In this document: positions 3,916 to 60,200 of the stretch, in pieces
Layout of the letters: every line of letters starts with the position of its first letter
Position numbering within the stretch: position 1 is the stretch's first letter
Assembly: GCA_964408485.1 (NCBI GenBank)
Contig: CAYOZJ010000005.1
Coordinates: forward strand, 13,203-77,202
Direction of reading: 5' to 3'
From: an uncultured Gammaproteobacteria bacterium
Lineage (GTDB): Bacteria; Patescibacteriota; Microgenomatia; Levybacterales; UBA12049
DNA length: 64,000 nt
Position numbers and translations under genes: made by a program
The notes under the pieces: generated by a model
The model's input: only the letters and a program-made list of their open reading frames with translations
Database searches by the model: none
What the model was told of the DNA's origin: nothing

Positions 3916-4173
3916 ATGGTAGTAGAAACGCAAGGAGAATTTTGTTCAATCAAGGTTGTTAATACGGCAGAACGAATGAACAACTTTGATCCCGCTAATA
4001 CAGCAGCAACGCTAGAAGCCGTAGACAGACTGGGAACATCAAGTTTGAGAAGAAGAATGCCGGGCACATCTTCTTCAGCCGACGTTGATGCTTTTTATAG
4101 AAATGGCGGTCATGTACAGGTAAAACAAGCAATTGCACGCAGAAATGAACTAAGAAAACAACATCTCCTCTAA
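3916..4173 (+). CDS. Hypothetical protein (85 aa)
   Basis: ORF only; no motif recognised. Confidence 0.2.
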   Translation: MVVETQGEFCSIKVVNTAERMNNFDPANTAATLEAVDRLGTSSLRRRMPGTSSSADVDAFYRNGGHVQVKQAIARRNELRKQHLL

Positions 4174-4288: not shown

Positions 4289-4297
4289 TTACGTAAT

Positions 4298-4528
4298 ATG
4301 GCAATTGATGTTCAGCGACCAACAAATCTTCTAAAAGAATTGGCAGAGAAATTTTCTGAACCAGTAGCACGCAGAAATCCTGTACCCTCAGCAAAAGCTT
4401 CAACTCACGAAGCTTATTTAGCCACTTTACAACGCCCAAGCAGATCTCGTGATCAACTACGACTCGCTCGACACAATGCAGATCAACAGCATACGCATGT
4501 CTTAGGTTTTCTTCTTCGAAATAAGTAA
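4298..4528 (+). CDS. Hypothetical small protein (76 aa) with near-leaderless start
   Basis: ATG 9 nt after a perfect -10; in frame with listed ORF 4256-4528. Confidence 0.35.
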   Translation: MAIDVQRPTNLLKELAEKFSEPVARRNPVPSAKASTHEAYLATLQRPSRSRDQLRLARHNADQQHTHVLGFLLRNK

Positions 4529-4650: not shown

Positions 4651-5988
4651 ATGGCTATACAACCCGGCACTCCAGAAATTACACCACCTAAAGCTAAAAG
4701 CACCAAGGATACTCCTCCATTAACTCCCTTTCATTCTCAATATGTGGAACGTTTAGGACCTAATGGCGAAATAACCAGGTATCGGCTGCGTCAGTCAGGC
4801 GAAGGAAACTCAGGCAACTTGTATGACCTATCTCATCCTGATGTAGATTTTTGGCGAATAAACCAATATAGAACCCTTATGGAAAACACTATTAAGCCAT
4901 ATAAAGTCTTGAGCTCAAAAATGCATGACATAGAACTTTTTTCCAAACCGGAATCAAGACAGCGCCCTATTGTACAAAAGAACTTACAAGACAGCCTAAA
5001 TCAATTACTTGGAGGAGCAACTATCCTTTCATCAGAAATATCTCGCACCATGCGAGAAGCAACTCAAGAAGGAAGTGTAGCGCTAACTATTGGTTCATTT
5101 TTTAAGCATGTTGCCAATGATGGACCAAGGAGTAATTTAGAAATACCTCTTTCTTGGCTTGCAACATCAAGCTTTGAGGGTTATACCATGGTAGATACTC
5201 TCGCTCGATATGTTTATGGAGTAAAAGCAGAACCGGCTGATATAACAACACAAAGAGAATCTCAACAGCAAGACATACCTCAAAGGCTTGAAAAACTGCT
5301 TGATACACAGATTCCTATGGATGTTTTGAAAAGTGCAGCAGAACGCTTGCGAAAAAATCCAGTAGGCATAACGCTCAGCATGCTTTTGCAAGAAGTAAGT
5401 AGATCTTATCCCCCATTCATGGACAATATTGCAGAAAATCTTTCGAGCCAACAACCAATAGAACAACAGTCTGCCCACCTTATGCTGAAAACTTTTCAAG
5501 AATTTATTGCTACCTATCCTGAACCCATGCTCATAAAAGATCCACCGTGGAAAGAATGGTATAACCGCATAAAAAATAATCGCCTATTGGGAAAACCACT
5601 ATTCTCTCGCCAATCCTTTACACCAGAGGAAATGCTTAAAATACTGATAGGAGCTAAAAGCAGAGATAAAAGCATATCTAAAAAAACAGATCAGTTTATG
5701 AGCGCCTTGCATAATGCACCAAGTCAGGTTGGTAAAATGACTATGAATGATGCAATGGAACAAGTGAAAAAAACTTATCCTGATGGAATAATTCCTGGAA
5801 TAGAAGCTGCTGCAAAAACAAATGCAGCATTAAATAATCAGCCCTTCGAAGGAAGACTTCCTCTCTCACCGAATCAGGAAAGATATATAAGAAGAGTACG
5901 AAAAGAAGACAGAGAGAGCATACGATACTATCTGGAGCAGAATAACTACTTGCTTAATTTGTATCAGAAATATGTAGGCTTATTTTAG
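4651..5988 (+). CDS. Hypothetical protein (445 aa)
   Basis: Long intact ORF; no family recognised. Confidence 0.5.
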   Translation: MAIQPGTPEITPPKAKSTKDTPPLTPFHSQYVERLGPNGEITRYRLRQSGEGNSGNLYDLSHPDVDFWRINQYRTLMENTIKPYKVLSSKMHDIELFSKPESRQRPIVQKNLQDSLNQLLGGATILSSEISRTMREATQEGSVALTIGSFFKHVANDGPRSNLEIPLSWLATSSFEGYTMVDTLARYVYGVKAEPADITTQRESQQQDIPQRLEKLLDTQIPMDVLKSAAERLRKNPVGITLSMLLQEVSRSYPPFMDNIAENLSSQQPIEQQSAHLMLKTFQEFIATYPEPMLIKDPPWKEWYNRIKNNRLLGKPLFSRQSFTPEEMLKILIGAKSRDKSISKKTDQFMSALHNAPSQVGKMTMNDAMEQVKKTYPDGIIPGIEAAAKTNAALNNQPFEGRLPLSPNQERYIRRVRKEDRESIRYYLEQNNYLLNLYQKYVGLF

Positions 5989-6867: not shown

Positions 6868-6948
6868 TATGAGTAATTGCTATTGTACCCAAGAATCTCT
6901 TTACTTGTCAATCCAAGTTTGATACAATATCTGCTAGATCAGTACGTT

Positions 6949-7131
6949 ATGACCACACCGGTAACCTTTTTACAGCAAGTCTACGCAGAACTGAAAAAGG
7001 TCACCTGGCCGACAAGGCAAGAGATTGTGAGGCTAACAGCAACAGTTATCTTGATAAGCGTCATTGTGGGAGTATTTATAGGTGGACTTGACTTCATCTT
7101 TACTTCACTCCTTCAACTGGTTGTTAAATAA
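6949..7131 (+). CDS. secE: Preprotein translocase subunit SecE
   Basis: 60-aa protein with a single TM helix and the motif ELKKVTWPTRQE, immediately upstream of nusG. ATG at 6949 is preferred over TTG at 6877. Confidence 0.8.
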   Translation: MTTPVTFLQQVYAELKKVTWPTRQEIVRLTATVILISVIVGVFIGGLDFIFTSLLQLVVK

Positions 7132-7139
7132 TCAAACTT

Positions 7140-8105
7140 ATGACAGACGATACAACAAAATTAGTAGAGGAAGCCATGGAAGAGGCTCAGGACGAACCTA
7201 CTACAGTAACAGAAACAGAAGAAGTTTTCAAAGAGCAAACTCCTGCAGAAAAAGCAGAAGAAGTAGTTGAAGAAGAATCGAAAGATGAAGAAGCAACTGC
7301 ACCGGAGCTTATTGCAGAAGAAGCAGTTGAGCTTGAAAACAAGCCTGAAGAATCATCCGACGCCGAGGCTATGGATGACAAGCCTCAAGTAGAAGAAGTT
7401 TCCAATGAAGAAATAAAGGTTGAAGAAACACCAGTAGAAGAATCCCCTGTCATTTCGAACGAAAGTGAGAAATCTAATACAGACGAGATTGCCGCGTCGC
7501 AAGCTCCTCGCAATGACGATAAGAATGATGAAAAACCTCAAGATGTTTTAGCTGAAGAGAAAAAGGAAATTGTTATTCCAGATAATGCAAAATGGTACAT
7601 TATTCATACCTATGCTGGGCACGAAAATAAAGTGGCAAAAGCTCTTAGACAGCGAGCAGAAACCATGGGTTTTGCAGATAAAATCTTTGATATTATTGTC
7701 CCAACAAGAGAAGTTACTAAAGTTGCAGGCGGTAAAAAGTCTCAAGTCCAAGAAAAAATCTTCCCAGGATATGTTATTGTCCGAATGGTCTTAACTGATG
7801 AGTCATGGATTTTAGTGCGCACTACTCCAGGCGTAACAGCCTTTATTGGTGCAGGCAATAAGCCAACCCCAATCTCAGAAAAAGAAGTAGAAGCAATCCA
7901 GAAATTTATGAAGGTAGAAGAACCTTTATACAAAGCATCTTTTGTTGTTGGTGAGGCTGTAAAGATAGTCGATGGTCCATTTGCTGATTTCTTGGGTACT
8001 ATTGATAGTATTGATGAAACAAAAGGCAAACTTAGAGTGTTAGTCTCTATCTTTGGTCGAGAAACACCAGTTGAGTTAGACCTTTTACAGGTTAGTAAAA
8101 TCTAA
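7140..8105 (+). CDS. nusG: Transcription termination/antitermination factor NusG with a ~140-aa acidic N-terminal extension
   Basis: NGN domain (KWYIIHTYAGHENKV) and KOW domain (FVVGEAVKIVDGPFADFLGTI). The Glu/Asp-rich N-terminal extension contains in-frame repeat element B1 (7449-7517). Confidence 0.9.
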   Translation: MTDDTTKLVEEAMEEAQDEPTTVTETEEVFKEQTPAEKAEEVVEEESKDEEATAPELIAEEAVELENKPEESSDAEAMDDKPQVEEVSNEEIKVEETPVEESPVISNESEKSNTDEIAASQAPRNDDKNDEKPQDVLAEEKKEIVIPDNAKWYIIHTYAGHENKVAKALRQRAETMGFADKIFDIIVPTREVTKVAGGKKSQVQEKIFPGYVIVRMVLTDESWILVRTTPGVTAFIGAGNKPTPISEKEVEAIQKFMKVEEPLYKASFVVGEAVKIVDGPFADFLGTIDSIDETKGKLRVLVSIFGRETPVELDLLQVSKI

Positions 8106-8106
8106 T

Positions 8107-8331
8107 ATGGCAGGAGAACTTACATTAAAGCAAAGGTTTGTAGGAAAATCCTCTGGAAGACCATCAGGTGGAGTCGTCTATGATACAGAAAAACGAGCTT
8201 TCACGGATGGAAGAGATGCTGAACCTGCCACGCGAGCTGAAAAACTTGCTGTCGCAGGAACCGGAGGAAGAAGGCCAAAAAGTGGTTCAGTATGGGTATT
8301 TAATCAAAGCGGAGAAGCAATAAAGCTATAA
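8107..8331 (+). CDS. Hypothetical small basic Gly-rich protein (74 aa) in nusG-rplK insertion
   Basis: ATG 1 nt after the nusG stop; GC-richer than its surroundings; no family recognised. Confidence 0.3.
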   Translation: MAGELTLKQRFVGKSSGRPSGGVVYDTEKRAFTDGRDAEPATRAEKLAVAGTGGRRPKSGSVWVFNQSGEAIKL

Positions 8332-8335
8332 ACTT

Positions 8336-8560
8336 ATGTCAGACAGAAAAACTATATCAAATAAAGCAGCCAAAAGAAGAAGGGGTGGAACAAACCAGGA
8401 GTTTGCTGGGGTAGTTGCACCAAAAAGTGAATCAACCCAATTAACAGAATTACACTTGCATCAAGAACGAACCGGGACAGTACCACCGTCTACTCCTAAG
8501 CGTAAGGTTTTTGATCCGTTTGGTCGGTGGAGTAAAGCAGATGGGAGAAATATAGAATAA
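8336..8560 (+). CDS. Hypothetical small basic protein (74 aa) in nusG-rplK insertion
   Basis: Tightly packed between the preceding ORF and rplK (stop 1 nt before the rplK ATG). Confidence 0.3.
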   Translation: MSDRKTISNKAAKRRRGGTNQEFAGVVAPKSESTQLTELHLHQERTGTVPPSTPKRKVFDPFGRWSKADGRNIE

Positions 8561-8561
8561 T

Positions 8562-8981
8562 ATGGCTAAAAAAATAAAGACATTAATTAAATTAAATATT
8601 CCAGCCGGAAGTGCAACACCAGCACCACCAGTTGGTACAGCTTTAGGCCCACACGGACTTCCTATTATGGAATTCGTGAAAGCATTTAACGACAGAACGC
8701 AAGATCAAAAAGGCAATATCTTACCAGTTGTTATTACTGTCTTTGAAGACCGAACATTTAGTTTTATTACCAAGCGCCCACCTATTGCTGAAATGATTAA
8801 AAAAGCACTAGGAAGAGCAGGATCTGGTAAGCCAGGAAAAGAATCAGCAGGCACACTTTCTATGACACAAGCTCGAAAGATTGCAGAAGATAAATTGGAA
8901 GATTTGAATACAGACAACGTAGATCAGGCAGTAAAAATCGTTGCAGGAGTAGCACGAAGTATGGGAGTAGAAGTCAAGTAA
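8562..8981 (+). CDS. rplK: 50S ribosomal protein L11
   Basis: MAKKIKTLIKLNIPAGSATPAPPVGTALGPHG is the canonical L11 N-terminus. Confidence 0.95.
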   Translation: MAKKIKTLIKLNIPAGSATPAPPVGTALGPHGLPIMEFVKAFNDRTQDQKGNILPVVITVFEDRTFSFITKRPPIAEMIKKALGRAGSGKPGKESAGTLSMTQARKIAEDKLEDLNTDNVDQAVKIVAGVARSMGVEVK

Positions 8982-9097: not shown

Positions 9098-10033
9098 ATG
9101 GGAAAAGTTAAAACAATAGATCCAGAAAAACAAGAGCAATTAGCAAAAGAAAAAGCGGCAAAAGAAGCTGAAAGACTGGCACAAGTTGAGGCTGCACGTT
9201 CGGCTGCTTCTGTGAGAGCAAAGGATAAGGTTGGAAAAGAATTAAGAAGCAAGAATCAAGAATCAAGCTCAGAAGAGAAAAAAGAAACAAGTGTCATTCT
9301 GGGGAACGAAGTGACTCCAGAATCTAACGTAGATGCTGGACAAGCCAGCATGACAGATCAAAAAGAACCCAAAAAAAGTAAAAAGGTCTCTAAATATGCT
9401 GCTAAAAAAGGCGCAAAAGGACGAGAAAGGTCTGAAAATTACAAAAAAGCACTTGCTCAAGTAGACAAATCAAAGCAGTATTCTATAAAAGAAGCGTTAG
9501 CACTCTTAGATAAAACTCATTTGGCAAAATTCGATGAAACAGTAGAGTTACACATAAATACAGCATCAGCTGGCCTTTCTGGACAAGTAACTCTCCCTCA
9601 TGGTACAGGTAAAAACGTTAGAGTTGCTATTCTTGCACCAAGTAAAGACGCAAAAGCAGCAGATGACCTTTTGAAAGAAATTGAATCAGGAAAAATTAAT
9701 TTTGATATTTTAGTGGCAACACCTGATGCAATGCCTAAGCTAGCGCGAGTTGCTAAAGTACTCGGACCTCGAGGACTTATGCCAAATCCAAAGAATGGTA
9801 CTGTTAGTCCAAATCCAGAAGCTGTTGCCAAGCAATATGAAGGTGGACAAATGCATTACAAAACAGAAGCAAAGACTCCTATCATGCATTTAGCAGTTGG
9901 TAAGCTTTCTTTTGGACCAGAAAAACTTGAACAAAATATTACTGCAATGTTAAAAGCAGTAAAAATGGAAAATATTAAAAAAGTTGTTGTTAAATCAACA
10001 ATGTCTCCAGCAGTCAGACTTCTTGTCAAATAA
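9098..10033 (+). CDS. rplA: 50S ribosomal protein L1 with a Lys/Glu-rich N-terminal extension of ~84 aa
   Basis: C-terminal 228 aa align with L1 (SKKVSKYAAKKGAKG...VATPDAMPKLARVAKVLGPRGLMPNP). ATG at 9350 is an alternative start. The extension contains a caagaat-type short repeat. Confidence 0.9.
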   Translation: MGKVKTIDPEKQEQLAKEKAAKEAERLAQVEAARSAASVRAKDKVGKELRSKNQESSSEEKKETSVILGNEVTPESNVDAGQASMTDQKEPKKSKKVSKYAAKKGAKGRERSENYKKALAQVDKSKQYSIKEALALLDKTHLAKFDETVELHINTASAGLSGQVTLPHGTGKNVRVAILAPSKDAKAADDLLKEIESGKINFDILVATPDAMPKLARVAKVLGPRGLMPNPKNGTVSPNPEAVAKQYEGGQMHYKTEAKTPIMHLAVGKLSFGPEKLEQNITAMLKAVKMENIKKVVVKSTMSPAVRLLVK

Positions 10034-10355
10034 CCTTTCTTTCGGTATTATTCTTTGCAATGACCGAACCCATTCCGTTTGATCCACGCCGAAAACCAAA
10101 AACATGTGGTCTTGACGTAGAACATGTTGGCCCAACAGAAAGAATTAGTGCCAATCAAGCAAAAACTAATGCTAGGTGTAGAAATTGCAAAATAGGAAAA
10201 ATTGGATTTGATCCTAATGCTGTTTACTCACGAGTTATGCCCGGCGTAATATATCCACAGTACGAACTGAATAGACGTGGAAGAGAAAGTATATACGAAA
10301 GACAGAGAATCTGTGAAGAAGATCAAAGACTCCAGAGATTTGAAGAATGATCTTC

Positions 10356-10384
10356 TTGACAAAACTATAAGTCTAAGGTATACT
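10356..10384 (+). promoter_or_regulatory. Sigma70-like promoter TTGACA-N17-TATACT
   Basis: TTGACA 10356-10361, 17-nt spacer, TATACT 10379-10384, 6 nt upstream of ATG at 10391. Confidence 0.5.
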
Positions 10385-10390
10385 CCACCC

Positions 10391-10615
10391 ATGCCTTTAA
10401 TACGCAGACAAAGAAGTTTAGATCTCAGATTTGGTATATTGCCAGGATCAGATGGTAAAGAACAATCAGCTGGTTCGTTTAGAATGAAGTTAGTCCCAAA
10501 TCCGGAAAATGAAGGCGTATTAAGAATACTAAGAGAATTTGTCAAAAATCCTTCTGATGAGATACCTAAAAATGGAGCACTCTTCCCTTCTACATCAAAA
10601 ATTGAAAACATATAG
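10391..10615 (+). CDS. Hypothetical small protein (74 aa), probably leaderless
   Basis: ATG 6 nt after a perfect -10 and in frame with listed ORF 10277-10615; lies in the ~1-kb rplA-rplJ spacer. Confidence 0.3.
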   Translation: MPLIRRQRSLDLRFGILPGSDGKEQSAGSFRMKLVPNPENEGVLRILREFVKNPSDEIPKNGALFPSTSKIENI

Positions 10616-10659
10616 TCTTATAGCACTCAATTCCCGAAACAATTAGATTAACTCATAGT

Positions 10660-10688
10660 TTGAACTGGCTCATCATTTAATGTAAAAT
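10660..10688 (+). promoter_or_regulatory. Sigma70-like promoter TTGAAC-N17-TAAAAT
   Basis: TTGAAC 10660-10665, 17-nt spacer, TAAAAT 10683-10688; ATG at 10698. Confidence 0.45.
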
Positions 10689-10697
10689 ATACATCTA

Positions 10698-10937
10698 ATG
10701 GCAACGTGTGATGTGGAGCAAACAGAGAGTTTTGGTAGTCAAGCAGGTGAAGTCGTACGAAAGTATACTTGTCCAAGATCAGACTGCTGCATGGACTTTA
10801 ATGTTAGACCAAAAACAACACGTAACGTCTACCCTATTAGCACCGAGGGACTAAATAAAGCTAGGAAAGAGAGGCTGACAGAAAAAGATGGCATTTCAAA
10901 AGAGTGTCAAAGAAGACAACAGGCACGATTAAATTAA
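10698..10937 (+). CDS. Hypothetical small Cys-containing protein (79 aa)
   Basis: ORF with its own promoter inside the rplA-rplJ spacer; 6 Cys, possibly metal-binding. Confidence 0.3.
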   Translation: MATCDVEQTESFGSQAGEVVRKYTCPRSDCCMDFNVRPKTTRNVYPISTEGLNKARKERLTEKDGISKECQRRQQARLN

Positions 10938-11074
10938 AACCTTGCAACTTTCTATTTTTTACTCTATAATACATATATCCAAAGACCGGAAGCGATCATT
11001 AAGTCTTCCAGAGGAGAATTAGTCAGGTACAATACTGCACCTGACATAGCAATAAAAAGAACAGATTGCTAGCA

Positions 11075-11098
11075 AACACTCCTCGAGAGTGTTTTTTT
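11075..11098 (+). terminator. Hairpin plus T-run directly upstream of rplJ (attenuator/terminator-like)
   Basis: Arms aacactc / gagtgtt with loop ctcga, then ttttt, ending 7 nt before the rplJ ATG. Confidence 0.4.
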
Positions 11099-11104
11099 AA
11101 ATCT

Positions 11105-48214: not shown

Positions 48215-51200
48215 ATGGAATATTTACAAAAGTTTAGAATTTATTTACTTTCATTAACACCTGCACCGTCAGCAGTAACTGTGAAAAATTACTGCTTAGA
48301 CGTGAAGCACTTTATTTCGTGGTCAGAACAGAAAAATCACGCACCCTTCGATCCATCAAAAGTTACCCAGGATGAAATAGAAAAGTTTCGACAGGATGAG
48401 AATGGACATCTCTCTGCTCGCTCACTCGATAGGCACGTATCAAGCTTACGAAAATTCTTCCACAGCCTTAAATTACAAGGCGTATTATCAACAAGTCCAT
48501 TTGAAAATACAGTATCTACTCAATTACCAACAGATCCCTACAAGCTAAAACAATTCAAAGATTTCCTTTATGTCTATAACGCAAGTAATCTAACTATAAA
48601 AAACTACATCATTGATGTGAAGCAGTTTTTCAAATGGGCAGAGGAAAAAATTCAAGCTCAGACAGACCAGGAGTCTGAAGAAATTACCCCTCTTTCCTAC
48701 CTAAGTAATGACCTTTTAGCCACATACCGAGATGAATTATTCTCAGGAAATGTTTTCTCAGCCTCATCTATCAACCGAAAGCTCTCTTCTCTTCGCAAGT
48801 ATATTGGCTGGGCAAAGTCACAAAATTTCTTGGAAAACGAATTAGACTCCCGTAATAATCCAAACGAAGTAGCAAACATAGCTAGCGCTCACACTTCTAG
48901 CGTGCTAGAAGTGAATCAGAACAAAGCGGAAAGCGAAAAGCGTAAAGAATTAGAAACCAAAAAAGAAGCAAATGGGAAAAACCTTGACGCTTTACCCTTA
49001 ACGCTTAACGCTGGTTACTCTCCTTTTCCTCCTCTTCGTCTTGCTCAAAAGATATCAAAAGGATTCAATTATGGTTTGGACGTTGCTATTATCGCTCCTC
49101 TTGCTAAGCTCGTATTGCAAGGTACAAAAGTGCTCTGGACACTCCAAGGAAAACCTCTTTTTGTTGCAGCAAAGAAATCATTAAGGCTAGCAAGTCCTGT
49201 GAAAAATATATCTAAGTTTGCAGTACAGGCTGGAGAAGTTTCCACAGCTAACTTTTCATGGTATCAAAAAATTTGGCATCACGCACAAAACACACGACCT
49301 AACTGGTACAGAAGATATCATCAACTACCAGTCGCCCATTATTTTAACTGGGCGATACTCATGATTGTTATGACAATCATTGGTGTTGGTTTTTATAATA
49401 GCTTTATTGCAAAGCCACAGAATAGTAAACCACTTTTAGCAGCAGCCCAACCAAACAGAATTCTTTCTTTCCAGGGTAGACTTACTGATAGCAGCAATAA
49501 TCCAATCACCACTTCTTCAAATTTGCGGTTTGCTATTTATACAGACGCAACTTCAACAGGTTCTGCCCAACTATGGCAAGAATTAGACAATGTTACGCCG
49601 GATGCTAACGGCGTATTTTCTGTTTTGCTTGGAAAAAACAGTAGCATTCAACAATCGCTCTTTGCTAATAATGCGAATTTATATTTGGGTATTACTGTCG
49701 AACAGACACCCGAGCTCACTCCTCGCCAACAACTCGCAACAGTTGCCTATGCGACCAACGCAGAAACACTCCAAGGTCTACCACCTATCACCCAGTCTGG
49801 CGCGGGAACAAGCAATGTCGTCCTCGCACTAAATTCTTCTGGTAATTTATCCATTGGTGCAGCATCCACTTTTCAGACCGTTGGTGGCGCATTTACGCTT
49901 GCTGGAGATACGCTTGTCTTAAATACCAATCCCGGTACAAATGGTAACATAACCATAACCCCAGACGGCCTAGGTTTTATAGATTTGCAAAAGCCACTTG
50001 TTAATACAACACAAAACAATAACATTCCATCAGCTTCAGGCTCTGTGGAAATTGATGATACGCTTGCAATTCTTGCAACATCAGATGCTGTCCCTGCCCA
50101 AACAATTAATCAAGACGGTGCAGGTGCACTTTTCACAGCTTCAGCTGGAGGTATTAGTAAATTCACCATTGGCAATTCAGGGACAATAACTGCCAGCAAT
50201 TACAATACAGCAGGTGGCGTTTTTTATGCAGATGGTACTGGTCTTTTTCTCCAAACAACAGCAGGCGCGATTGGCCAATGTCTTACATCTAATGGATCTT
50301 CTGGTCCAAGCTGGACAGCATGTAGTGGTGGATCTGCAAACAACTTTTGGACAATTACAAATGGCGCATTGTATCCAGTGAATACAACACTTGATGTCCT
50401 CTTTGGCGGAACTGCATCAAATGGCGCTAATTTTGCCTTTATTAACAACGCACCAGGATCCGGCACACCAACAGCATCTGTTTCAGGAAATATTACGCTT
50501 AATAGCGCAGGCCTCATTCAGACAACAAATAACCAACAGCTGACTATTGGCGGCGATACGACAGGCAATATCGTCCTCAAGCCATTGAATGGTGCAGGAA
50601 CTGTTACCTTATCTGGCTACGCAACAGGAATAATTCATTCAACGTCTGGAGTTTTATCTTCAAGTGCTGTTGACTTGGCAAGCGGAGATGTAACTGGTGT
50701 GTTGCCTTTAGCAAATGGGGGTACAAATAATAGCTTGGTTGCAGATAATGGTGGCATCGTCTATTCAGACGCAACAAGACTTCAAGTTTTGGCGCATGCG
50801 GGATCTGCAGGACTTTGTCTTACCTCTGGTGGCGCAGGCGCCCCAAGCTGGGCGAGCTGTTCGGGAAGTAATTCCAACTTCTGGAATGTAAATAACGGCG
50901 TCATTTACCCAAGCAATTCAACGCTTGATTTTATTTTGGGTGGAGACGGCGCAACAACATCTGCAAAATTTGCAGTCCTGAATATGACAGGTTCTGGAAC
51001 ACCAGTTGCATCAGTAAGTAGTGGTTTGAATGGAAATGCTACATATATCGCAGCAGATGGAACACTTCAGACAACAAGAAACCATGCGCTAACAATTGGC
51101 GGAAGCACAACTGGAAACATAATCCTTAGCCCGCTTAACAGCTTGGGATATGTCCAACTAAATGGAACAGTCAATTCTAATCTTGTCCCAACAATCACTG

Positions 51201-54200
51201 ACACCTATAACTTGGGCTCACCAAGTAATGAATGGAATAACTTATATGTTAAAAATCTTGTTGTCTCAGGAAGCATCGCAGGATTTTGGCAAAGAAATTC
51301 AGGTGTCCTCTCCCCTACCAATATTACAGACGACTTAGCGATTGGCGGTATAGCAACAAATACTGCAAGATTCCAAGTCTTTGCAAATACAGGCAATGCA
51401 ACAACTGCAGGTAATTTAACTTTCACCGGAAATGGTAGCCAAATTCAGACAACAAGTAACCAAACTCTCACTCTTGGAGGAAATACCACAGGAGGTATCG
51501 TGTTATCTCCAAGTAATGGAACAGGCACAATTGGTCTCAATGCAAGCAACATAACAACAAATCAAACAACTGTAAATCTTCTCAACACCACAGCAACAAC
51601 GGTTAATTTTGCAGGCGCTGCAACAACAGTAAGTATTGGCAATTCAGGAGGATCTACAACAATCAATGGCGGTTTAGTGGTAAATGCAGACACACAGCTT
51701 CTTGGCAATACAACGTTAGGCGACAGCTCATCTGACACAATTGCCTTTATTGGCCAAGTAAATACCAATATTCTCCCTTCCACAACAAATGCTCGTGATC
51801 TTGGCTCCCTTGCTCAACAATGGAATAATATTTATGGAAATCACATTTTTAGCAATGGTGTTGAATTGTCCCAATTCTTCCAGAGAAATTTTGGCGTTAT
51901 ATCCCCATTGAATATCACTGACGACTTAGCTGTCGGTGGAACAGCAACAAATACTGCTAAATTTCAGGTATCTGGCTTAACAGGCAATGCAACAACTACG
52001 GGTACACTTACGTTTGATGGGACGGGTAACCTTATCCAGACAACTAAATTCCAGGATTTAACAATTGGTGGGACAACAACTGGAAATATTACACTCAGTC
52101 CAAAAAATGGAACAGGCACAGTTACCATTGCAGGGCTGTCATCGGGTGTAGTACATAGTACCGGGGGCATCCTCTCTTCAAGTAACGTAAACTTAACCAG
52201 TGAAGTAACCGGTATCCTTCCTATTGCCAATGGAGGCACAAATACTAATACAATAGGTTCGGCAGGAAGCATTGCCTACTCAACCGGTACTGCATATGCA
52301 TTTAATTCAGTGGGATCCACAGGTCAATGTCTTGTATCTAATGGATCTGGAGCCCCTAACTGGACATCATGTACTACTGCAGCAGGCGCAACAAATTACT
52401 GGACACTCGATGGCGGCAATGGAATTTTGTATCCTGTTAATACAACACTTGATGTGTTGTTTGGTGGAACATCGAGTAACTCTGCTAATTTTGCATTTCT
52501 TAATAATGCACCAGGATCTGGTACACCAACTGCATCCATTTCCGGTAACTTAACTCTCAATAGCGCTGGAAACATTCAAACAACAAATAACCAACCACTG
52601 ACCATTGGCGGCAATACAACGGGAAGTGTTACCTTAGCGCCAAGCAATGGAAATGGAACGCTCAATCTTAATGCTACAAATATTAATACAAATCAGACAA
52701 GTGTAAATCTTCTCAACACAACAGCAACAACAATTAATTTTGGAGGTGCAGCAACAAGTATTAATATCGGTAATGCAGGAGGCTCAGCAACATTTAATGG
52801 CGGGCTTGTCGTCAATGCAGATACAACGCTTAACGGCAACACAACCTTAGGAGATAGCTCGAGTGATCGAGTCACTTTTAACGGACTAGTGAATTCAAAT
52901 ATCATTCCATCTGCAAATAATACCTATGACTTAGGCTCAATCACGAATGCATGGAATAATATTTTTGTTAACAACATTATCTCAAGTGGCAACATATCAG
53001 GACTTTGGCAAAGATTTTTGGGAGTCCTATCCCCTGTTAATATTGGCGATGACTTAGCAATCGGTGGGACAGCAACAGGTACAGCCAAATTTCAAGTGTT
53101 TGGTAACACTGGCAATGCAACAACTGCAGGTAATCTCACATTTAATGGCAATGGAGTAATTCAAGCAACAAATAATCAACCTCTTACGATTGGCGGAGAT
53201 ACAACAGGCAGTATAACAGTAGCGCCTAATAATGGTACTGGCACAGTAAATCTTAACGCTACAAATATTAATACCAATCAAACAAGTGTAAACCTACTTA
53301 ATTCTACTACTACAGCAATTAATTTTGGAGGTGCAGCAACTGCGCTTTCAATCGGTGCAGGATCTGGAACAACAACAGTTAATAATGGTCTCACAGTTAC
53401 CGGAACAAGCACCTTAAATGGCAATGTTGTTTTGGGAGCAAATAGTACCAAAACAATTACCGCAAACGGACAGTTTAATTCCTCTCTTATTCCATCAGTA
53501 ACCGATACTTACGATTTAGGATCAATTGCACTTGAGTGGAATAATCTGTATGTTAAAAATATTATTGCAGGGGGCAATGTATCTGGATTTTGGCAGAGAT
53601 TCTTGGGAGTTATTTCTCCAACAAATATCACGGACGACTTAGCAATTGGTGGAACAGCAACAAATACAGCAAGGTTCCAGGTTTTTGGAAATACAGGCAA
53701 TGCAACAACTACAGGTACACTTACTTTTGATGGGACCGGTAGCCTTATCCAGACAACACGAAACCAAGGCCTAACAATTGGAGGAGATACAACAGGAAAT
53801 ATTACGATAAAACCACTCAATGGAACAGGAACAGTCACTATTGCAGGACTTGGGACAGGAGTAGTACATAGCACAAATGGACTTCTTTCTAGTAGTGCAG
53901 TGAATTTAGCAAATGGCTCAGCAGATATAACTGGAACTCTTTCAACAAGTAATGGCGGTACGGGACAAAATTCATACGCTGGCGGCGATCTTCTGTATTA
54001 TGCATCCGGAACATCTTTATCCAAACTCACTATTGGCGGCGCAAATACAATCCTCACATCAACCGGCACAGCTCCACAATGGTCAAGTAGCCTCACACTT
54101 GGAGGCAACTTAAATGTGAATGGTAACACAACGCTTGGAGACACCGCTGGGGATACGATAACCTTTAATGGTCAAGTTAATTCCAATATTATCCCAACAA

Positions 54201-57200
54201 GCAGTAATGCATTTGATTTAGGATCCATAACCAATGCATGGAACAATTTGTACGTTAACAACATTATCTCAAGCGGTAATATCTCAGGATTCTGGCAAAG
54301 AAATTCTGGCGCACTTTCCCCTGCTAATATTACCGACGATCTTTTAGCAGGCGGTACAGCAACAAGTACAGCAAAGTTTGCAGTCTTAAATATGGCAGGA
54401 GGTACACCTGTTGCTTCTATTTCTTCAGGACTTTCTGGAACAGGACTATATCTCTCAGCAGATGGAAGTATCCAAACAGTAAGAAATCAAGGTCTAACAC
54501 TTGGTGGGGCAACAACGGGAAATATCATTCTCTCTCCACTTGGCGGAACAGGAACAGTAACAATAAATGGCCTTGGAACTGGCATTGTCCACAGTACAAC
54601 GGGGGTACTCTCAAGTAGTGCAGTAAATTTAGCAAATACAGATGTCACAGGAATTTTGCCTTTGGCAAATGGAGGAACAAATGCAAACCTTACCGCAGAT
54701 AATGGCGGCATAGTCTACTCAGATGCTTCTAAGTTGCAGATATTGGCTCATGCAGGCACAGTTGGACAATGTTTGGTAAGCGGCGGATCAGGAGCACCAA
54801 GCTGGACAAATTGTAGTAGTGCCTCGCAAAATTGGTGGAATGTAAATAATGGCGCACTCTTTCCTATCAATTCAACGCTTGATCTTCTCTTAGGTGGAGA
54901 CGGCGCAACAACATCTGCAAAATTTGCAGTACTCAATATGACTGGGAGTGGCACACCAACTGCATCAGTAAGTAGTGGTTTGAATGGAAATGCAACATAC
55001 ATTACAGCAGATGGAACACTTCAAACAACACGCAACCAAGGACTGACGATTGGAGGCGCAACAACAGGAAATATTACGCTTTCTCCTCTTAATGGTGGAA
55101 GTGTAAGTACAATCAATCTTAATGCCAGGACACTTGCAACCAACCAAACGACGGTCGATCTGCTTAACACAACGGCAACAAGTATTAACTTTGGAGGAGC
55201 AGCAACCTCTCTTTCTATTGGAAATTCAGGTGGAACAACAACAGTCAATGGTGCCTTAGCCGTAAATGGCAATACCAACTTAAATGGCAATACAACAATT
55301 GGCGACAACGCATCAGATACCATTGCATTTACTGCACATGTTAACTCCAGCATCCTTCCCAGCACTGATACAACCTATGACTTAGGAAGTGGTTCGCTTA
55401 GGTGGAATAATGTCTATGCTGGCAATCTCATTCTTCCTGTTACAGGCGGAATCGATGGCTATTGGACACTTGCCTCAAGTGTTCTATCACCAACAAATAC
55501 GTGGAATGATTTAGTAATAGGCGGAACGTCAACAAGCAGCGCTAAATTCCAAGTATTTTCCAATACAGGTAATGCTACAACGTCTGGTAATTTGACATTC
55601 AATGGCAATGGAACAATTCAGACAACGAATAATCAGCCACTTACTCTTGGTGGCAACAGTACAGGTAATATCATTCTTTCCCCAAATAACGCAGCAGGAT
55701 CGGTAACAGTTAATGGATTTATAAGCAGTAATCTTATTCCATCAAGAAATGATACGTATGACTTAGGCTCTGGGACAAATGAATGGAATAACTTGTATGT
55801 TAAAAACATTATCTCGACCGGTAATTTAGCAGGATTCTGGCAGAGAAATTCTGGCACACTCGCTCCCCTTAATATTAGTGATGATTTGCTCGCCGGTGGA
55901 ACAGCAACAAGTACAGCGCGATTTGCTGTGCTTAATATGTCTGGCCCTGGTACACCAACAGCATCTGTTAGCTCAGGACTTTCTGGCACTGGTATGTATT
56001 TTGATGCCAATGGAACAATCCAAACAGTCAGAAACCAAGGCTTGACTCTTGGTGGGGCGACAACGGGAAATATCACACTTTCACCTCTTAATGGAAGTGG
56101 AATAGTAACAGTGAATGGGACAAGTTTGCTGAGCTCTGGAACATCATTTAACTTGCTTACTGGCGCAACAACAATTTCCATCGGCGCAGGGTCCGGAACA
56201 ACAACAGTTAATAACGGCCTAACTGTTACCGGAACAAGCACATTAAATGGCAATGTCGTATTAGGCGCGAGCAGTAGTCAAACAATCGCAGCAAATGGTC
56301 AATTTACAACAAGTCTTATCCCAAATACTGACGCGTCATTTGATCTTGGATCTAGTCCATCCAATAGATGGAGAAACCTTTTCCTGTCTGGTAATTCAAC
56401 AGTTGGTGGCAATGAAACAGTTACCGGAACAGCAACAGTTGGTAATTTAGTTTTGGCATCAACTGCTAATTATGGCGGGTTCTGGCAGAGATTTAGCGGT
56501 GCACTCTCCCCTGTTTATTCAACAGATGATATTCTTGTAGGGTCAAATGCAACAACATCTGCAAAGTTTGCACTTTTAAACATCGCAAATGGCACACCTG
56601 TTGCTTCTATTTCATCAGGTTTTTCTGGAACAGGCATGTACTTTGATGCAACTGGGACTATTCAAACAGTGAGAAATGCAGTACTTACTCTTGGCGGCAA
56701 TACAACAGGTGGAGTAGTATTTGGCAGTAATGTTGCATCAAATATTCTGCCAAAGTTTACTAATACCTATGATTTGGGATCACTTGCTCTTCAGTGGAAT
56801 AATGGATATTTCAACAATATTTATGCAAATGGTCAGCCCATAACACAACTATTCCAAAGAAATTCTGGCGCACTTTCCCCTCTCAATATTACTGATGACT
56901 TACTCTTGGGTGGCACAGCAACAAGTACTGCTAGATTTGCATTTATTAATAACACTGGGACAGGCGCACCAACTGCTTCTATCTCAAGTAACTTCTCACT
57001 TGTTGTCCCAACAGGCGCAGCACCAGCAGAAACAATTAATGTCTTAAATGGTGGAAGTCTTAATATTCAACACTCAGCAGGTGGAGACACAGGACTCACA
57101 AGTTCACTCTTTATAGACAAAGCAGGACAAGTTGGTGTTGGGACAGCAAGTGTATCTCATCAGCTTGAAATTGCCGGAAGTTCAACGCAATTTAATTCAA

Positions 57201-60200
57201 CAGTCTATCTGAATCCTTCAACATTTGGATCTTCAAAACGAGCTGGTCTTAATCTTGATAATTGGCTCTTAGCACAAGATATTGGAGGAACAGGTGTAAA
57301 AGATTTTGTTATCTATGACACAGCAAGTGGCCAATCAAAATTCTACATAACTGCCAATGCAAATGGTGGAGCAGGCTTTGGTTTGCCTGTACTTGGCGCT
57401 GTCAATAGCCTTGGTAACTCAGAATTTGTCGTAAATCAACCAAATACCGCTGGAGACATACTAAGTGCATCAACATCTGGCACAACAAAATTTGTGATTA
57501 CCAATGATGGGACCGTTGGTATTGCAAATAATGTAACCGATGCAACTATTCTTAATAAATCTGCTCTTGATGTACGAAAAGATTCCTTTGGTAATGCACT
57601 AACACTCTTCAAACAGCTTTCCTCTGATACCAATGCAGATATTATTACTGCATCTAATTCTGCAGGACTTACGGAATACAGACTCACTAATGCAGGCGTT
57701 GAACAGGCAAGACAATTCCAGGATTTGGATAGCACTGCTTACTTCCTTGATCCTGCAGCATCTGGCAATTCTCTTATCATTGCAGGGACAGCTGGTATTG
57801 GAACAACCTCTCCCCTTGCATCCAGTGGCTTAGATATAGAGAAAAATGCATTAGGCAATGCAGCAGAAGTGGTTAATCAATTAGGTAATGGCGATATCTT
57901 TACTGCTTCTGCATCTGGAGTTAAGAAGTTTACTATTCAAAATGATGGAACACTGGTTGCTGGAAAATACACAACAAACAAAGGCATACTATATATTAAT
58001 GATACAGCTGGAACAATTGCCGAGACAGGACAAGGCGCAGCAAATACTGTACTTCATGGAAATGGCACATCTGCTCCATCATTTAGCGCTGTTGACTTGG
58101 CAGCAGATGTTACAGGCATTCTTCCACTCGCAAATGGAGGAACAAATAATAATATTACTGCAGATAATGGTGGTATAGTCTACTCAGATGCAACCAAACT
58201 CCGACTATTAGCTTCTACGGTAACTGCAGGCCAATGCCTTTTGTCCGGATCAAGCAGCGCGCCAACATGGGGAAGTTGCGGAAGTGGAACAGGCGTAAAT
58301 TGGTGGACAATGAGCAACGGCGCACTCTTCCCTCTTAATAACACCCTTGATTTGTTTGTTGGCGGCAGCGCTACAACATCTGCAAAATTTGCAGTGCTCA
58401 ATATGACTGGGAGTGGCACACCAACAGCATCTGTAAGCTCAGGACTTTCTGGCAATGCAACATATATTACCGCAGACGGATCTTTACAGACAGCACGAGC
58501 AGCAACATTGACCTTGGGCGGAACCACCACCGGCAATATTGTATTAAAACCACAAAATGGTGGAGGCTCTATAACGATCGATGGCCCAACACTTGATACA
58601 ACAAATACAACCTTTAATGCATTTACCACTGCTTCAACGCTTGGTATTGGCGCTGCATCCGGGACAACAACAATAAATAATGGCCTTACTGTAGCTGGCA
58701 ATATTAGTGATAATGGTGGAACATTCACAACAAATCAGACAACATTCAACTTGCTCAATACAACAGCAACAACAATTAATTTTGGTGGCGCTGCAACTGT
58801 TGCACTCAATGTTGGTGCAGCAACAACACCAATTAATCTAAAAGGTAACGTTACACTTGGTACTGATGCAACAAACACTATTACATCAAATGGTTTATAT
58901 GCATCTGATCTTATTCCAACAGGCAATGGATCAATCAACTTGGGATCAGCAACACATTACTATGGCACAGTCTATGCAAATAATTTTATTGCGCCAGTAA
59001 GTGGCGGTGTATCCGGCTTCTGGCAATTAACAAATAGTGTTATCTCCCCTGTTAATGCATGGAATGATTTGGCAATCGGTGGCAATGCAACGGGAAGCGC
59101 AACACCATGGCAAGTATTTGCAACAACTGTTGGCGTTAATACTGCAGGCACAGCAACATCTTCTGGAAATCTTTCATTCAGAGGAACAAATACCAATATT
59201 AACTTGCTTAATGGTAGTATCCTAAGTGTCAAAACATCCATTGGTGGAGACGCAGGACTCGGTACAGTCCTTACCATAGCCAACAATGGCAACCTAACTG
59301 CAACAGGAACATTAAATCTTAACAGTGGAATTCTGGCAACAAATCAAACAACAGCAAGTCTCTTTGATGCAACAGCAACAAGTATTAATATTGGCTCCGG
59401 TGCAACATCAGGTATCGGTATTGGCAATGCAAGTGGAATCAATACAATTAGGGGAAATGTTGTCTTGAATAGCACATCAGGAAATACCCTAACGATTAAT
59501 GGCCGTGTAAATACAGATATCATTCCTGATGTAACTAACTCTCATGATTTGGGCTCTAACGACCTTAAATGGAGAAACATTTTCGCAGGAAGCGCAGTAA
59601 CAACAAATAATCTTTATCTTCCTGTTAGTGGCGGCACTGATGGCTACTGGTCCTTAGCCAGTAATGTGCTATCTCCAACAAATAATTGGAATGACTTGGC
59701 AATAGGAGGAACAGCAACAAGTACTGCTAAATTCCAAGTATTTAGTAACACAGGGAATGCAACAACAGCTGGAAATCTTACTTTTAACGGCAACGGAGTA
59801 ATTCAGACAACCAATAATTTACCATTTACTCTCGGTGGAAATTCTACAGGAACAATTACCCTTGCTCCATCTAATGGTGGCGCAGGCAGTATTCTTAACC
59901 TCAACGCAGCAAATATTAATACTAATCAAACAAGTGTTAATTTACTTAACACAACAGCAACAACAATTAATTTAGGTAACGCCGCAACAACATTAAATCT
60001 TGCTAATAATGCCCTCACAACAACAATTGGTATCGGCGGATCTGGTGGAACAACAACAGTCAATAACGCTCTAACGGTAACTGGTGCAACTACACTAAAT
60101 GGTACGATCAACTTAGGCAATGCAACAAGTGATGACATAACAGCAACAGGATTTTTTGCAAGCTCACTCATTCCAAAAGCAGCAGATACCTATAACCTTG

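What the first reader, a model, noticed from the sequence alone, without database searches (positions are those of the whole stretch)
8103..8566. 455-bp insertion carrying two 74-aa ORFs between nusG and rplK, flanked by 9-bp direct repeats
nusG and rplK are normally adjacent. Here TAATATGGC occurs at 8103-8111, spanning the nusG stop and the ATG of ORF 1, and again at 8558-8566, spanning the rplK ATG. It brackets a GC-richer 455-bp segment with two translationally coupled 74-aa basic ORFs (8107-8331, 8336-8560). The direct repeat looks like a target-site duplication or duplicated gene start, i.e. a small insertion into the most conserved operon in bacteria. The ORFs would be co-transcribed with L11/L1 and might be novel ribosome-associated proteins or cargo of a minimal element.
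Basis: seen in the sequence. Interest (0 to 1): 0.6.

Follow-up and report, generated by a model that had tools for sequence, protein, structure and literature searches.

The report
Two orphan small genes between nusG and rplK
Two small, basic protein genes with no detectable relatives sit between nusG and rplK in a Levyibacteria genome, at a spot that holds different small genes in related genomes, and the flanking 9-bp repeat looks like a repeated stop/start junction, not a transposon footprint.

Summary
TAATATGGC lies at 8103-8111 and 8558-8566, and two 74-codon ORFs (8107-8331, 8336-8560) fill the nusG-rplK gap.

Both ORFs look like real coding sequence. Each scores best in its own frame. 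GC at codon positions 1/2/3 is .59/.56/.21 and .49/.52/.26, against .50/.42/.29 for the window's genes. Neither has a credible homologue in any protein, family, phage or metagenome search.

The genome is a Levyibacteriota (Patescibacteria). In this group the junction is not a fixed adjacency:
- In 53 Microgenomates-type genomes the gap runs from 1 to 3,644 bp.
- In 12 contigs with about 95% identical L11 it is either 14-27 bp or 211-514 bp.
- The long gaps are filled by one or two mutually unrelated ORFs of 66-83 aa, nearly all basic.
- Two relatives share the first 28 codons of their ORF, then become unrelated up to rplK.

The transposon reading is not supported: there are no inverted ends, no second copy, and host-like third-position GC. 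The same TAAtATGGC junction precedes rplK in two relatives.

Best reading: lineage-restricted small genes in a fast-changing slot, translated in a chain from nusG to rplK. Their function is unknown. Interest is moderate.

The parts
7140..8105 (+). nusG. It has a roughly 150-aa acidic N-terminal extension, then NusG-N and KOW domains. Stop TAA at 8103-8105.
   Evidence: Pfam NusG 4.9e-29 and KOW 1.8e-6; ORF list.
8103..8111 (+). Junction 1, TAATATGGC: nusG stop, one T, then ATG+GC of ORF1. First copy of the 9-mer.
8107..8331 (+). ORF1, 74 aa, pI 10.1, hydrophilic, no Cys. Orphan protein-coding gene.
   Evidence: Best of six frames, score 0.40, z 4.3 against an open-frame null, GC1/2/3 .59/.56/.21. 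Only a self hit in the homologue searches. No family above noise. AF2 mean pLDDT 56.
8329..8338 (+). Junction ORF1 to ORF2: TAA, then actt, then ATG (4-nt spacer).
8336..8560 (+). ORF2, 74 aa, pI 10.6, hydrophilic, no Cys. Orphan protein-coding gene. AF2 puts a beta-hairpin at residues 55-69. That stretch holds a DPFGRW motif, and L085 has DPFALGRW at the matching place.
   Evidence: Best of six frames, score 0.20, z 2.5, GC1/2/3 .49/.52/.26. Only a self hit. AF2 mean pLDDT 67, about 77-86 over residues 51-70. Motif match to L085 is not significant, E 0.64.
8558..8566 (+). Junction 2, TAATATGGC: ORF2 stop, one T, then ATG+GC of rplK. Second copy of the 9-mer.
   Evidence: The same junction precedes rplK in L085 and L086.
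8562..8981 (+). rplK (ribosomal protein L11).
   Evidence: Pfam Ribosomal_L11_N 1.1e-26 and Ribosomal_L11 5.4e-22.
9098..10033 (+). rplA (L1) with a roughly 130-aa N-terminal extension. It lies 116 nt after rplK and is one of the few genes in the window with a well-placed Shine-Dalgarno core.
   Evidence: Pfam Ribosomal_L1 5.9e-36. SD survey. N-terminal insertion of uL1 in Microgenomates is described in PMC9297842.

Best explanation
ORF1 and ORF2 are two real, lineage-restricted ('orphan') genes for small, basic, hydrophilic and probably largely disordered proteins. They occupy a fast-changing slot between nusG and rplK in a Levyibacteriota clade.

Inferred: they are co-transcribed with nusG, rplK and rplA.

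Inferred: because the stop-start junctions are so tight (TAAtATG, TAAacttATG, TAAtATG) and no well-placed Shine-Dalgarno sequence precedes ORF1, ORF2 or rplK, ribosomes finishing nusG re-initiate on ORF1, then ORF2, then rplK. L11 synthesis would then depend on both frames staying open.

On this reading the 9-bp 'direct repeat' is that stop-start junction used twice, followed by a Met-Ala start. It is not a transposon footprint.

The slot's content changes by replacement of segments, and there is no visible purifying selection on the amino-acid sequence. The only shared properties are size, charge and hydrophilicity. No specific biochemical role for the peptides can be assigned. The likeliest general one is non-specific RNA or ribosome binding by basic disordered peptides.
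For: Shown: coding.
- The chance of each frame being open is about 0.009 and 0.008.
- Each ORF scores best in its own frame.
- The codon scores are 0.40 and 0.20, against a mean of 0.34 for real-gene segments. They lie 4.3 and 2.5 sd above an open-frame null.
- Three-base periodicity is strong and third-position GC is host-like.

Shown: orphan status.
- Only self hits among 5.8 billion protein clusters.
- Only self hits, plus one repeat-protein artefact, among 1.84 billion representatives.
- No family above noise in Pfam, PHROGs, NCBIfam or PADLOC.
- No credible relative in metagenome, viral or phage collections.

Shown: the slot.
- The gap is 1-3,644 bp in 53 Microgenomates genomes.
- In 12 contigs with about 95% identical L11 it is 14-27 bp or 211-514 bp.
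- The long gaps are tiled by one or two plus-strand ORFs of 66-83 aa. These are mutually non-homologous, score above the open-frame null (z 2.0-5.1), and are basic and Cys-free.

Shown: mosaic turnover. L085 and L093 share the first 28 codons at 94% nt identity, with 1 synonymous and 4 non-synonymous changes. They are then unrelated up to rplK. Their flanks are only 85% and 80% identical, and nusG shows 33 synonymous to 2 non-synonymous changes (Fisher p 0.003).

Shown: one transcription unit is plausible, and the segment is not a structured RNA.
- No promoter-like or terminator-like site lies between 7140 and 9097.
- The RNA fold z-score is +0.26.
- Rfam finds nothing.

Shown: most genes in the window lack a Shine-Dalgarno core.
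Against: - No transcript, ribosome-profiling or peptide evidence was available, so translation and coupling are inferred from sequence alone.
- No strain-level relative carries the same ORFs, so selection on ORF1 and ORF2 themselves could not be measured.
- Four-fold degenerate sites in rplK are only 47-70% identical to the 'close' relatives. The unrelated slot ORFs could therefore be very diverged orthologues and not independent replacements.
- By genome-wide frequencies the shared 9-mer is fairly unlikely. TAA is 31 of 45 stops, and ATGGC starts are 5 of 45 genes including ORF1 and rplK. My rough estimate is about 0.02 given a 1-nt spacer, so a real duplication of the rplK start is not excluded.
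- Strong GC1/GC2 over GC3 periodicity implies selection on amino-acid make-up. The products may therefore matter more than a pure 'relay' view suggests.
Confidence: 0.6

Rival explanations
1. The 9-mer is a true duplication of the ancestral nusG-stop/rplK-start junction. New DNA was inserted just after the rplK start codon, for example by fill-in of a staggered break or by illegitimate recombination. The old rplK start signals now drive ORF1, and the recreated copy serves rplK. The ORFs were then shaped within the inserted DNA.
For: - Relatives have tight junctions that are the same or nearly so: L057 TAAtATGGCT, L002 TAAttATGGCA, L015 TAAttATGGCT, L039 TAAaATGGCC.
- ORF1 uses the ATG of copy 1 and ORF2 uses the TAA of copy 2.
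- Other slot ORFs also start ATGGCA like rplK: L085/L093 and the second ORF of L082. L085 has an 8-nt repeat, ATATGGCA, at the ORF start and the rplK start.
- ATGGC starts are rare in the window, 5 of 45 genes including ORF1 and rplK.
Against: - The six nearest insert-free relatives have 14-27 nt spacers, several with SD-like motifs, not a single TAATATGGC. L057 is distant, at 60% NusG identity.
- The source of the 446 bp is unknown.
- Junction repeats in the other slot ORFs run from 4 to 8 nt, a continuum that similar start contexts would also give.
- A Met-Ala start after TAA can arise by convergence.
Confidence: 0.2
2. A miniature non-autonomous transposable element (MITE-like, derived from an insertion sequence) inserted into the nusG/rplK junction and made a 9-bp target-site duplication. 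The ORFs would be its cargo.
For: - A 9-bp direct repeat lies exactly at both boundaries.
- The segment is absent from the nearest relatives.
- From general knowledge, 9 bp is a usual duplication length for several insertion-sequence families (IS1, IS4/IS10/IS50).
- An IS200-like transposase lies in the same slot in distant relative L041.
Against: - No terminal inverted repeats.
- A single copy in the 64-kb window and none in 92 related loci, the metagenome scans or the viral scans.
- No transposase.
- Third-position GC and codon usage are host-like.
- The 'element' would lack its own start and stop codons, borrowing both from the duplicated target.
- The same junction occurs before rplK in L085 and L086 without a matching left copy.
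Confidence: 0.08
3. ORF1 and ORF2 are a type II toxin-antitoxin pair, or another small two-gene selfish or defence module, that landed in the operon.
For: Two translationally coupled ORFs of about 74 aa is the usual layout and size of such modules. Such modules are mobile and patchily distributed (general knowledge).
Against: - No match in Pfam, NCBIfam, PADLOC or PHROGs, even at E up to 1, beyond noise.
- Both proteins get low-confidence, largely unstructured models.
- Relatives carry one ORF as often as two in the slot.
- No promoter-like site of its own.
Confidence: 0.04
4. The ORFs encode new, functionally conserved ribosome- or transcription-associated proteins that belong to the L11/L1 operon.
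For: - Co-transcription with nusG, rplK and rplA appears likely, because no promoter-like or terminator-like site lies between them.
- Both are basic, pI 10.1 and 10.6.
- Proteins of this operon in this group carry lineage-specific extensions (nusG and rplA; uL1 in PMC9297842).
Against: - No homologue in about 15 billion proteins.
- Relatives with about 95% identical L11 have nothing, or unrelated ORFs, at the site.
- The one comparable pair shows 4 non-synonymous to 1 synonymous changes.
Confidence: 0.05
5. The segment is a non-coding spacer or leader RNA, and the ORFs are chance open frames.
For: The region lies upstream of rplK, where L1-binding leaders occur in other bacteria (general knowledge).
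Against: - The joint chance of the two open frames is about 7e-5.
- Codon periodicity and frame preference are gene-like.
- There is no Rfam hit and no excess folding energy.
- Five independent long spacers in relatives are likewise tiled by ORFs that score above the open-frame null.
Confidence: 0.03

Closest known systems
Taxonomically restricted (orphan) small protein genes and candidate de novo genes in bacteria
   Same: - No detectable homologues.
- Short, hydrophilic and predicted largely disordered.
- Host-like codon usage.
- Present or absent among close relatives.
   Different: - These sit inside one of the most conserved gene strings, chained by stop-start junctions between two essential genes.
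- The same slot holds non-homologous ORFs of similar size and charge in sister lineages.
- No non-coding precursor sequence was found, so de novo birth is not shown.
Translational coupling in the E. coli L11 operon (rplK-rplA) and other ribosomal-protein operons (general knowledge)
   Same: Tight stop-start junctions within a ribosomal-protein operon. Downstream genes probably depend on translation of the upstream frame.
   Different: - The coupled frames here are non-conserved orphan ORFs placed between nusG and rplK.
- Coupling is inferred from spacing and the lack of Shine-Dalgarno sequences, not measured.
MITEs and insertion-sequence insertions with 9-bp target-site duplications
   Same: A short segment (446 bp) flanked by a perfect 9-bp direct repeat and absent from relatives.
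   Different: - No inverted ends, no other copies and no transposase.
- It is coding and has host-like composition.
- The repeat coincides with functional stop and start codons.
Phage 'morons' and hyperplastic regions (small unrelated ORFs inserted between conserved genes)
   Same: Mosaic presence and absence of small unrelated ORFs at a fixed position between conserved genes, with sharp homology breakpoints (L085/L093).
   Different: - This is a cellular chromosome and an essential operon.
- The ORFs have no promoter-like or terminator-like sites of their own.
- No phage or viral relatives were found.
Type II toxin-antitoxin modules
   Same: Two coupled ORFs of about 70-100 aa.
   Different: - No family match.
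- No confident folded domains predicted.
- Relatives often have a single ORF.

Membership tests
Protein-coding gene (each of ORF1 and ORF2) | An open frame unlikely by chance, the annotated frame best of six, and codon-position periodicity like the host's genes | tested here: met
   P(open) 0.009 and 0.008. Scores 0.40 and 0.20 against 0.34 +/- 0.16 for real-gene segments. z 4.3 and 2.5 against an open-frame null. GC1/2/3 .59/.56/.21 and .49/.52/.26.
Protein-coding gene (each of ORF1 and ORF2) | Evidence of expression (transcript, ribosome footprints or peptide) | not testable with these tools
   No expression data were available.
MITE / insertion-sequence insertion | Target-site duplication flanking the element | tested here: inconclusive
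   A perfect 9-bp repeat lies at both ends. It equals a stop-start junction that also precedes rplK in L085 and L086.
MITE / insertion-sequence insertion | Terminal inverted repeats | tested here: not met
   No inverted repeat involves the two ends of 8112-8557.
MITE / insertion-sequence insertion | Multiple copies in the genome or in relatives | tested here: not met
   No second copy in the 64-kb window or the related loci, nor in the metagenome or viral scans. The rest of the genome was not available.
MITE / insertion-sequence insertion | An empty site in a close relative with one copy of the target | tested here: inconclusive
   The nearest insert-free relatives have 14-27 nt spacers of other sequence. 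The exact 9-mer occurs as the junction only in distant L057.
Type II toxin-antitoxin module | Match of either protein to a known toxin or antitoxin family or fold | tested here: not met
   No hits in Pfam, NCBIfam or PADLOC at E up to 1. AF2 models are of low confidence.
Type II toxin-antitoxin module | Two small adjacent co-directional coupled genes | tested here: met
   Two ORFs of 74 aa each with a 4-nt spacer.
Ribosomal or ribosome-associated protein family | Conservation across related genomes at the same locus | tested here: not met
   Absent from, or replaced by unrelated ORFs in, relatives with about 95% identical L11. No homologues anywhere.
Structured RNA / rplK leader | A covariance-model match or folding energy beyond shuffles | tested here: not met
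   Rfam found no match at E up to 1. The fold z-score is +0.26.
De novo (orphan) gene | No homologues outside a narrow lineage | tested here: met
De novo (orphan) gene | A syntenic non-coding precursor sequence in outgroups | tested here: not met
   Outgroup spacers share no detectable similarity with the insert. Synonymous sites are near saturation, so the test has little power.

The most novel reading that the evidence does not exclude
In this Levyibacteria clade the nusG-rplK junction, and perhaps also the rplA-rplJ junction, may be a cradle for small genes. Newly inserted or replaced DNA there would at once be transcribed at ribosomal-operon levels. It would have to stay open to pass ribosomes on to rplK. 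This would give a series of unrelated, similarly sized, basic, disordered 'relay' proteins, selected first for being translated and for a harmless composition, and only later, if ever, for a function. That would be a natural and repeatable setting in which to study bacterial gene birth and turnover inside an essential operon.
Probability: 0.25. Interest if true: 0.65.

Novelty: new variant of a known kind. Interest (0 to 1): 0.42.

Why it matters
If the reading holds, one of the most conserved gene neighbourhoods in bacteria tolerates rapid turnover of small translated ORFs in at least one lineage of the Candidate Phyla Radiation.

This gives a well-defined system of related genomes, one slot and unrelated occupants. 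It could be used to ask:
- how orphan small proteins arise;
- whether translational coupling alone can keep a frame open;
- what basic disordered peptides expressed with ribosomal proteins do.

It also cautions against reading short direct repeats at stop-start junctions as transposon footprints.

Tried and rejected
- **Homology searches.** Every search gave nothing credible:
  - the word-indexed search of 5.8 billion clusters for each ORF;
  - exhaustive phmmer of the ORF1+ORF2 concatenation against 1.84 billion representatives;
  - Pfam, PHROGs, NCBIfam and PADLOC;
  - phage tblastn;
  - viral and metagenome contig scans.

  In one search the only non-self hit, P0003, is a 1,911-aa repeat protein. 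Its match spans my artificial junction, so it is an artefact.
- **The one metagenome hit.** L081 lies in an antisense frame of a high-GC soil contig and is spurious.
- **Apparent resemblances by eye.** Similarities between the window ORFs and the L082 ORFs did not survive BLASTP or shuffle tests.
- **The DPFxxGRW motif.** It is shared by ORF2 and L085 but is not significant (E 0.64; local alignment p 0.075).
- **ORF1 and ORF2 as paralogues.** Rejected.
- **A single frameshifted gene.** Unlikely. The concatenated query found nothing spanning both ORFs, and L082 also has two separate ORFs.
- **A decayed tandem copy of rplK.** The 455-bp period is close to the gene length, but the insert shows no similarity to rplK.
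- **Other reading frames.** All are fragmented.
- **Structure.** Single-sequence AF2 gave low-confidence models, so no fold search was run.
- **Phylogeny.** A tree of the nusG 3' end plus rplK is star-like, with all relatives 80-85% identical. Gains and losses could not be ordered.
- **Literature.** Two full-text searches found no description of small ORFs at this junction.
Full report
**1. The observation**

- nusG is 7140-8105 (Pfam NusG plus KOW) and ends with TAA at 8103-8105.
- After one T, ORF1 runs 8107-8331 (74 aa).
- After four bases (ACTT), ORF2 runs 8336-8560 (74 aa).
- After one T, rplK runs 8562-8981 (both L11 domains).
- secE (6877-7131) lies upstream and rplA (9098-10033) downstream.

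TAATATGGC occurs at 8103-8111 and 8558-8566, 455 bp apart. It also occurs at 4294, giving 3 copies against 0.86 expected; 11 of 100 shuffles reach 3. The 900 bp around the finding contain two other exact 9-10 nt repeats. The repeat is therefore notable only for where it sits.

The claimed higher GC is weak. The peak is 0.455, against 0.355-0.445 in the neighbours. The two ORFs are not paralogues.

**2. Are the ORFs genes?**

I trained a codon model on 42-43 long ORFs of the window.
- Both ORFs score best in their annotated frame, at 0.40 and 0.20 bits per codon. Segments of real genes of the same length average 0.34 +/- 0.16. Shadow ORFs average -0.11.
- Against a null of random open frames of the same base composition, they lie 4.3 and 2.5 sd above the mean.
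- The chance of each frame being open is about 0.009 and 0.008.
- GC at codon positions 1/2/3 is .59/.56/.21 and .49/.52/.26. The window's genes give .50/.42/.29.

So the slight GC excess comes from Gly, Ala, Arg and Pro codons. Third-position GC is host-like, which argues against recently imported foreign DNA.

Other checks on the segment:
- Rfam finds nothing between 6800 and 11800.
- The RNA folds no better than shuffles, z +0.26.
- No promoter-like or terminator-like site lies between the site just upstream of nusG and rplA.

The segment is coding and probably part of the nusG-rplK-rplA transcript.

**3. What are the proteins?**

Both are basic (pI 10.1 and 10.6), hydrophilic and Cys-free, with about 77% disorder-promoting residues. 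Single-sequence AF2 models are of low confidence, with mean pLDDT 56 and 67. The only better-scored element is a beta-hairpin at ORF2 residues 55-69.

No search returned a credible relative.
- Only self hits appear among 5.8 billion clusters.
- Exhaustive phmmer of the ORF1+ORF2 concatenation against 1.84 billion representatives gave the two self hits and one other match. That match is to a repeat protein and spans my artificial junction.
- Nothing above noise in Pfam, PHROGs, NCBIfam or PADLOC.
- Nothing in phage records or viral contigs.
- Nothing in metagenome contigs except one spurious antisense match.

They are orphans.

**4. The junction in related genomes**

The NusG core retrieved 80 genomes. 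The nearest are Levyibacteriota and other Patescibacteria, with NusG core identity up to 91%.

Among the 53 Microgenomates-type loci with both genes on the contig:
- 27 have a nusG-rplK gap of 130 bp or less;
- 10 have 149-447 bp;
- 16 have 0.9-3.6 kb.

Among 19 more distant genomes (Dormibacterota, Chloroflexota, Saccharibacteria and others) the largest gap is 272 bp.

Cargo in the distant relatives is varied:
- a 23S-rRNA-intervening-sequence / bAvd-like protein (L011);
- an IS200-like transposase (L041);
- a TAT-signal protein;
- an Ig-domain protein;
- a Trp-repressor-like protein;
- a PaaX/Cas2-like protein;
- a glycosyltransferase.

So 'nusG and rplK are normally adjacent' does not hold for this group. 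The junction is a general hot spot.

**5. The closest relatives**

The 90%-identity cluster of the window's L11 has ten other members. Their contigs were fetched as L082-L093. The gaps are:

| Loci | Gap (bp) | ORFs in the gap |
|---|---|---|
| L084, L088, L089, L092 | about 14 | none |
| L087 | 24 | none |
| L083 | 27 | none |
| L086 | 211 | one, 66 aa |
| L085 | 236 | one, 74 aa |
| L090 and L091 (identical, from two samples) | 256 | one, 75 aa |
| L093 | 269 | one, 81 aa |
| the window | 456 | two, 74 + 74 aa |
| L082 | 514 | two, 83 + 70 aa |

Every long gap is tiled by plus-strand ORFs. They start 1-13 nt after the nusG stop and end 1-17 nt before rplK. All score above the open-frame null with the window's codon model, z 2.0-5.1. 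All are basic (pI 8.2-10.8), hydrophilic and Cys-free. In BLASTP and shuffle-calibrated alignments they are not detectably related to one another or to ORF1 and ORF2. The exceptions are L085/L093 and an insignificant DPFxxGRW motif shared by ORF2 and L085.

Two cautions apply.
- These relatives are 'close' only at the protein level. Their nucleotide identity to the window is 80-85%, and four-fold degenerate sites are 47-70% identical. Weakly constrained orthologues would therefore be unrecognisable.
- The tree is star-like, so gains and losses cannot be ordered.

**6. Evidence for segmental turnover**

L085 and L093 share the end of nusG and the first 28 codons of their small ORF at 94% nt identity. 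The five changes are 1 synonymous and 4 non-synonymous. Identity then falls abruptly to about 40% until rplK.

Their flanking genes are less alike: nusG 85%, with 33 synonymous to 2 non-synonymous codon changes, and rplK 80%. The difference from the shared module gives Fisher p = 0.003.

The slot therefore evolves by replacement or exchange of segments. The one measurable stretch shows no purifying selection on the peptide.

**7. The 9-bp repeat**

*Against a transposon footprint:*
- no terminal inverted repeats;
- no second copy anywhere that was searched;
- no transposase;
- host-like third-position GC;
- the 'element' would have to borrow its start codon and its stop codon from the duplicated target;
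- TAAtATGGC also joins unrelated upstream ORFs to rplK in L085 and L086, where the left junction is different.

*For a real duplication of the rplK start:*
- tight junctions identical or nearly identical to the 9-mer exist in relatives L057, L002, L015 and L039;
- several slot ORFs start ATGGCA like rplK, and L085 has an 8-nt repeat at the ORF start and the rplK start;
- ATGGC starts are only 5 of 45 genes in the window, and TAA is 31 of 45 stops.

From those frequencies my rough estimate for the chance of the exact 9-mer is about 0.02, given a 1-nt spacer.

*Against that reading:* the six nearest insert-free relatives carry 14-27 nt spacers of other sequence, not a single copy of the 9-mer.

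I give junction reuse or convergence the larger share, a non-transposon start duplication about 0.2, and a MITE-like element under 0.1.

**8. How it probably works (inferred)**

Most genes in the window lack a Shine-Dalgarno core. ORF1, ORF2 and rplK have none at a useful distance. rplA, 116 nt downstream of rplK, does have one.

With 1-, 4- and 1-nt stop-start spacers, the simplest mechanism is termination followed by re-initiation. Ribosomes leaving nusG would translate ORF1, then ORF2, then rplK. A nonsense mutation in either ORF would then lower L11 synthesis. That would keep the frames open whatever the peptide sequence.

The strong GC1/GC2 over GC3 periodicity shows that amino-acid make-up is also under some selection, either for solubility and harmlessness or for a function as basic, RNA-binding-like peptides. 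None of this was tested experimentally.

**9. Comparison with known things, and novelty**

The closest known kinds are:
- lineage-restricted orphan small genes;
- translational coupling in ribosomal-protein operons;
- the mosaic small-ORF regions of phages.

It is not a member of the MITE/insertion-sequence, toxin-antitoxin, ribosomal-protein or leader-RNA classes by the features tested (see the membership table). Two full-text searches found no description of small ORFs at this junction. The N-terminal extension of uL1 in Microgenomates is already described (PMC9297842).

**10. Verdict**

The ORFs are real orphan genes. The insertion idea is partly right, and the transposon and ribosomal-protein readings are unsupported.

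The most interesting result lies outside the original claim. A conserved-operon junction behaves as a fast-turnover slot for unrelated small basic ORFs. Interest is moderate (0.42), and I class it as a new variant of a known kind.

Noticed in passing
window 10034-11104 (rplA-rplJ spacer); L082 2098-5182: The rplA-rplJ gap is also expanded: about 1.07 kb in the window and 3.1 kb in L082. It is filled with small ORFs that match no family. The window ORFs are 10060-10350, 10277-10615 and 10698-10937. L082 has nine, 69-143 aa. Many contain several Cys, unlike the nusG-rplK slot ORFs. Window 10060-10350 weakly resembles L082 2140-2391 (both start MTEPI and share a CRxCK motif; E 0.045). L082 3717-3965 and 4006-4263 are paralogues (E 1e-11). 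Gaps of 1.3-2.3 kb also occur in L003, L007, L010 and L017.
   Followed up: partly
window about 10964-11015 and 11074-11094: A stretch of about 52 nt just upstream of rplJ is 88% identical between the window and L082, although the rest of the spacer is unrelated. A terminator-like hairpin with a T-run lies at 11074-11094, directly before the likely rplJ start at 11105. This may be an L10-leader-type regulatory element that Rfam does not recognise (no hit).
   Followed up: no
whole window; gene starts listed: Few of the 45 gene starts examined have a Shine-Dalgarno core at a useful distance. Many have a TAnAAT-like box 6-12 nt upstream of the ATG. This suggests widespread leaderless or SD-independent initiation in this genome.
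   Followed up: no
window 48215-63910 (+): A single open reading frame of 5,231 codons, a giant protein gene, takes up a quarter of the window.
   Followed up: no
window 7140-7586 and 9098-9500: NusG carries an acidic, Glu-rich N-terminal extension of about 150 aa. L1 carries a Lys/Glu-rich N-terminal extension of about 130 aa. The L1 extension is a described Microgenomates trait (PMC9297842). I did not find the NusG extension described.
   Followed up: partly
L085 300-600 versus L093 280-612: Two contigs from the same farmland study (different ENA assemblies) share the nusG end and the first 28 codons of their slot ORF at 94% nt identity. They are then unrelated up to rplK. Their flanking genes are only 80-85% identical. 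This is a sharp recombination-type breakpoint inside a small ORF.
   Followed up: yes
L011 3311-3691; L041 4578-5225; L047 4631-5254 (-); L022-L037 nusG-rplK gaps: In Gottesmanbacteria-like and other Microgenomates the same junction holds 0.9-3.6 kb of varied cargo. Examples are a 23S-rRNA-intervening-sequence / bAvd-like protein, an IS200-like transposase, a PaaX/Cas2-like protein, and TAT-signal and Ig-domain proteins. A conserved element of about 28 nt lies just upstream of rplK in several of them.
   Followed up: partly
window 3916-4173 and 4298-4528 (+); 9-mer at 4294-4302: Two more small ORFs (85 and about 76 aa) score above the open-frame null (z 3.2 and 3.5) and lie upstream of the 445-aa gene at 4651. 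They were not searched against any family library. The third copy of TAATATGGC (4294) contains the ATG at 4298, but its TAA is not the stop of an upstream ORF.
   Followed up: partly
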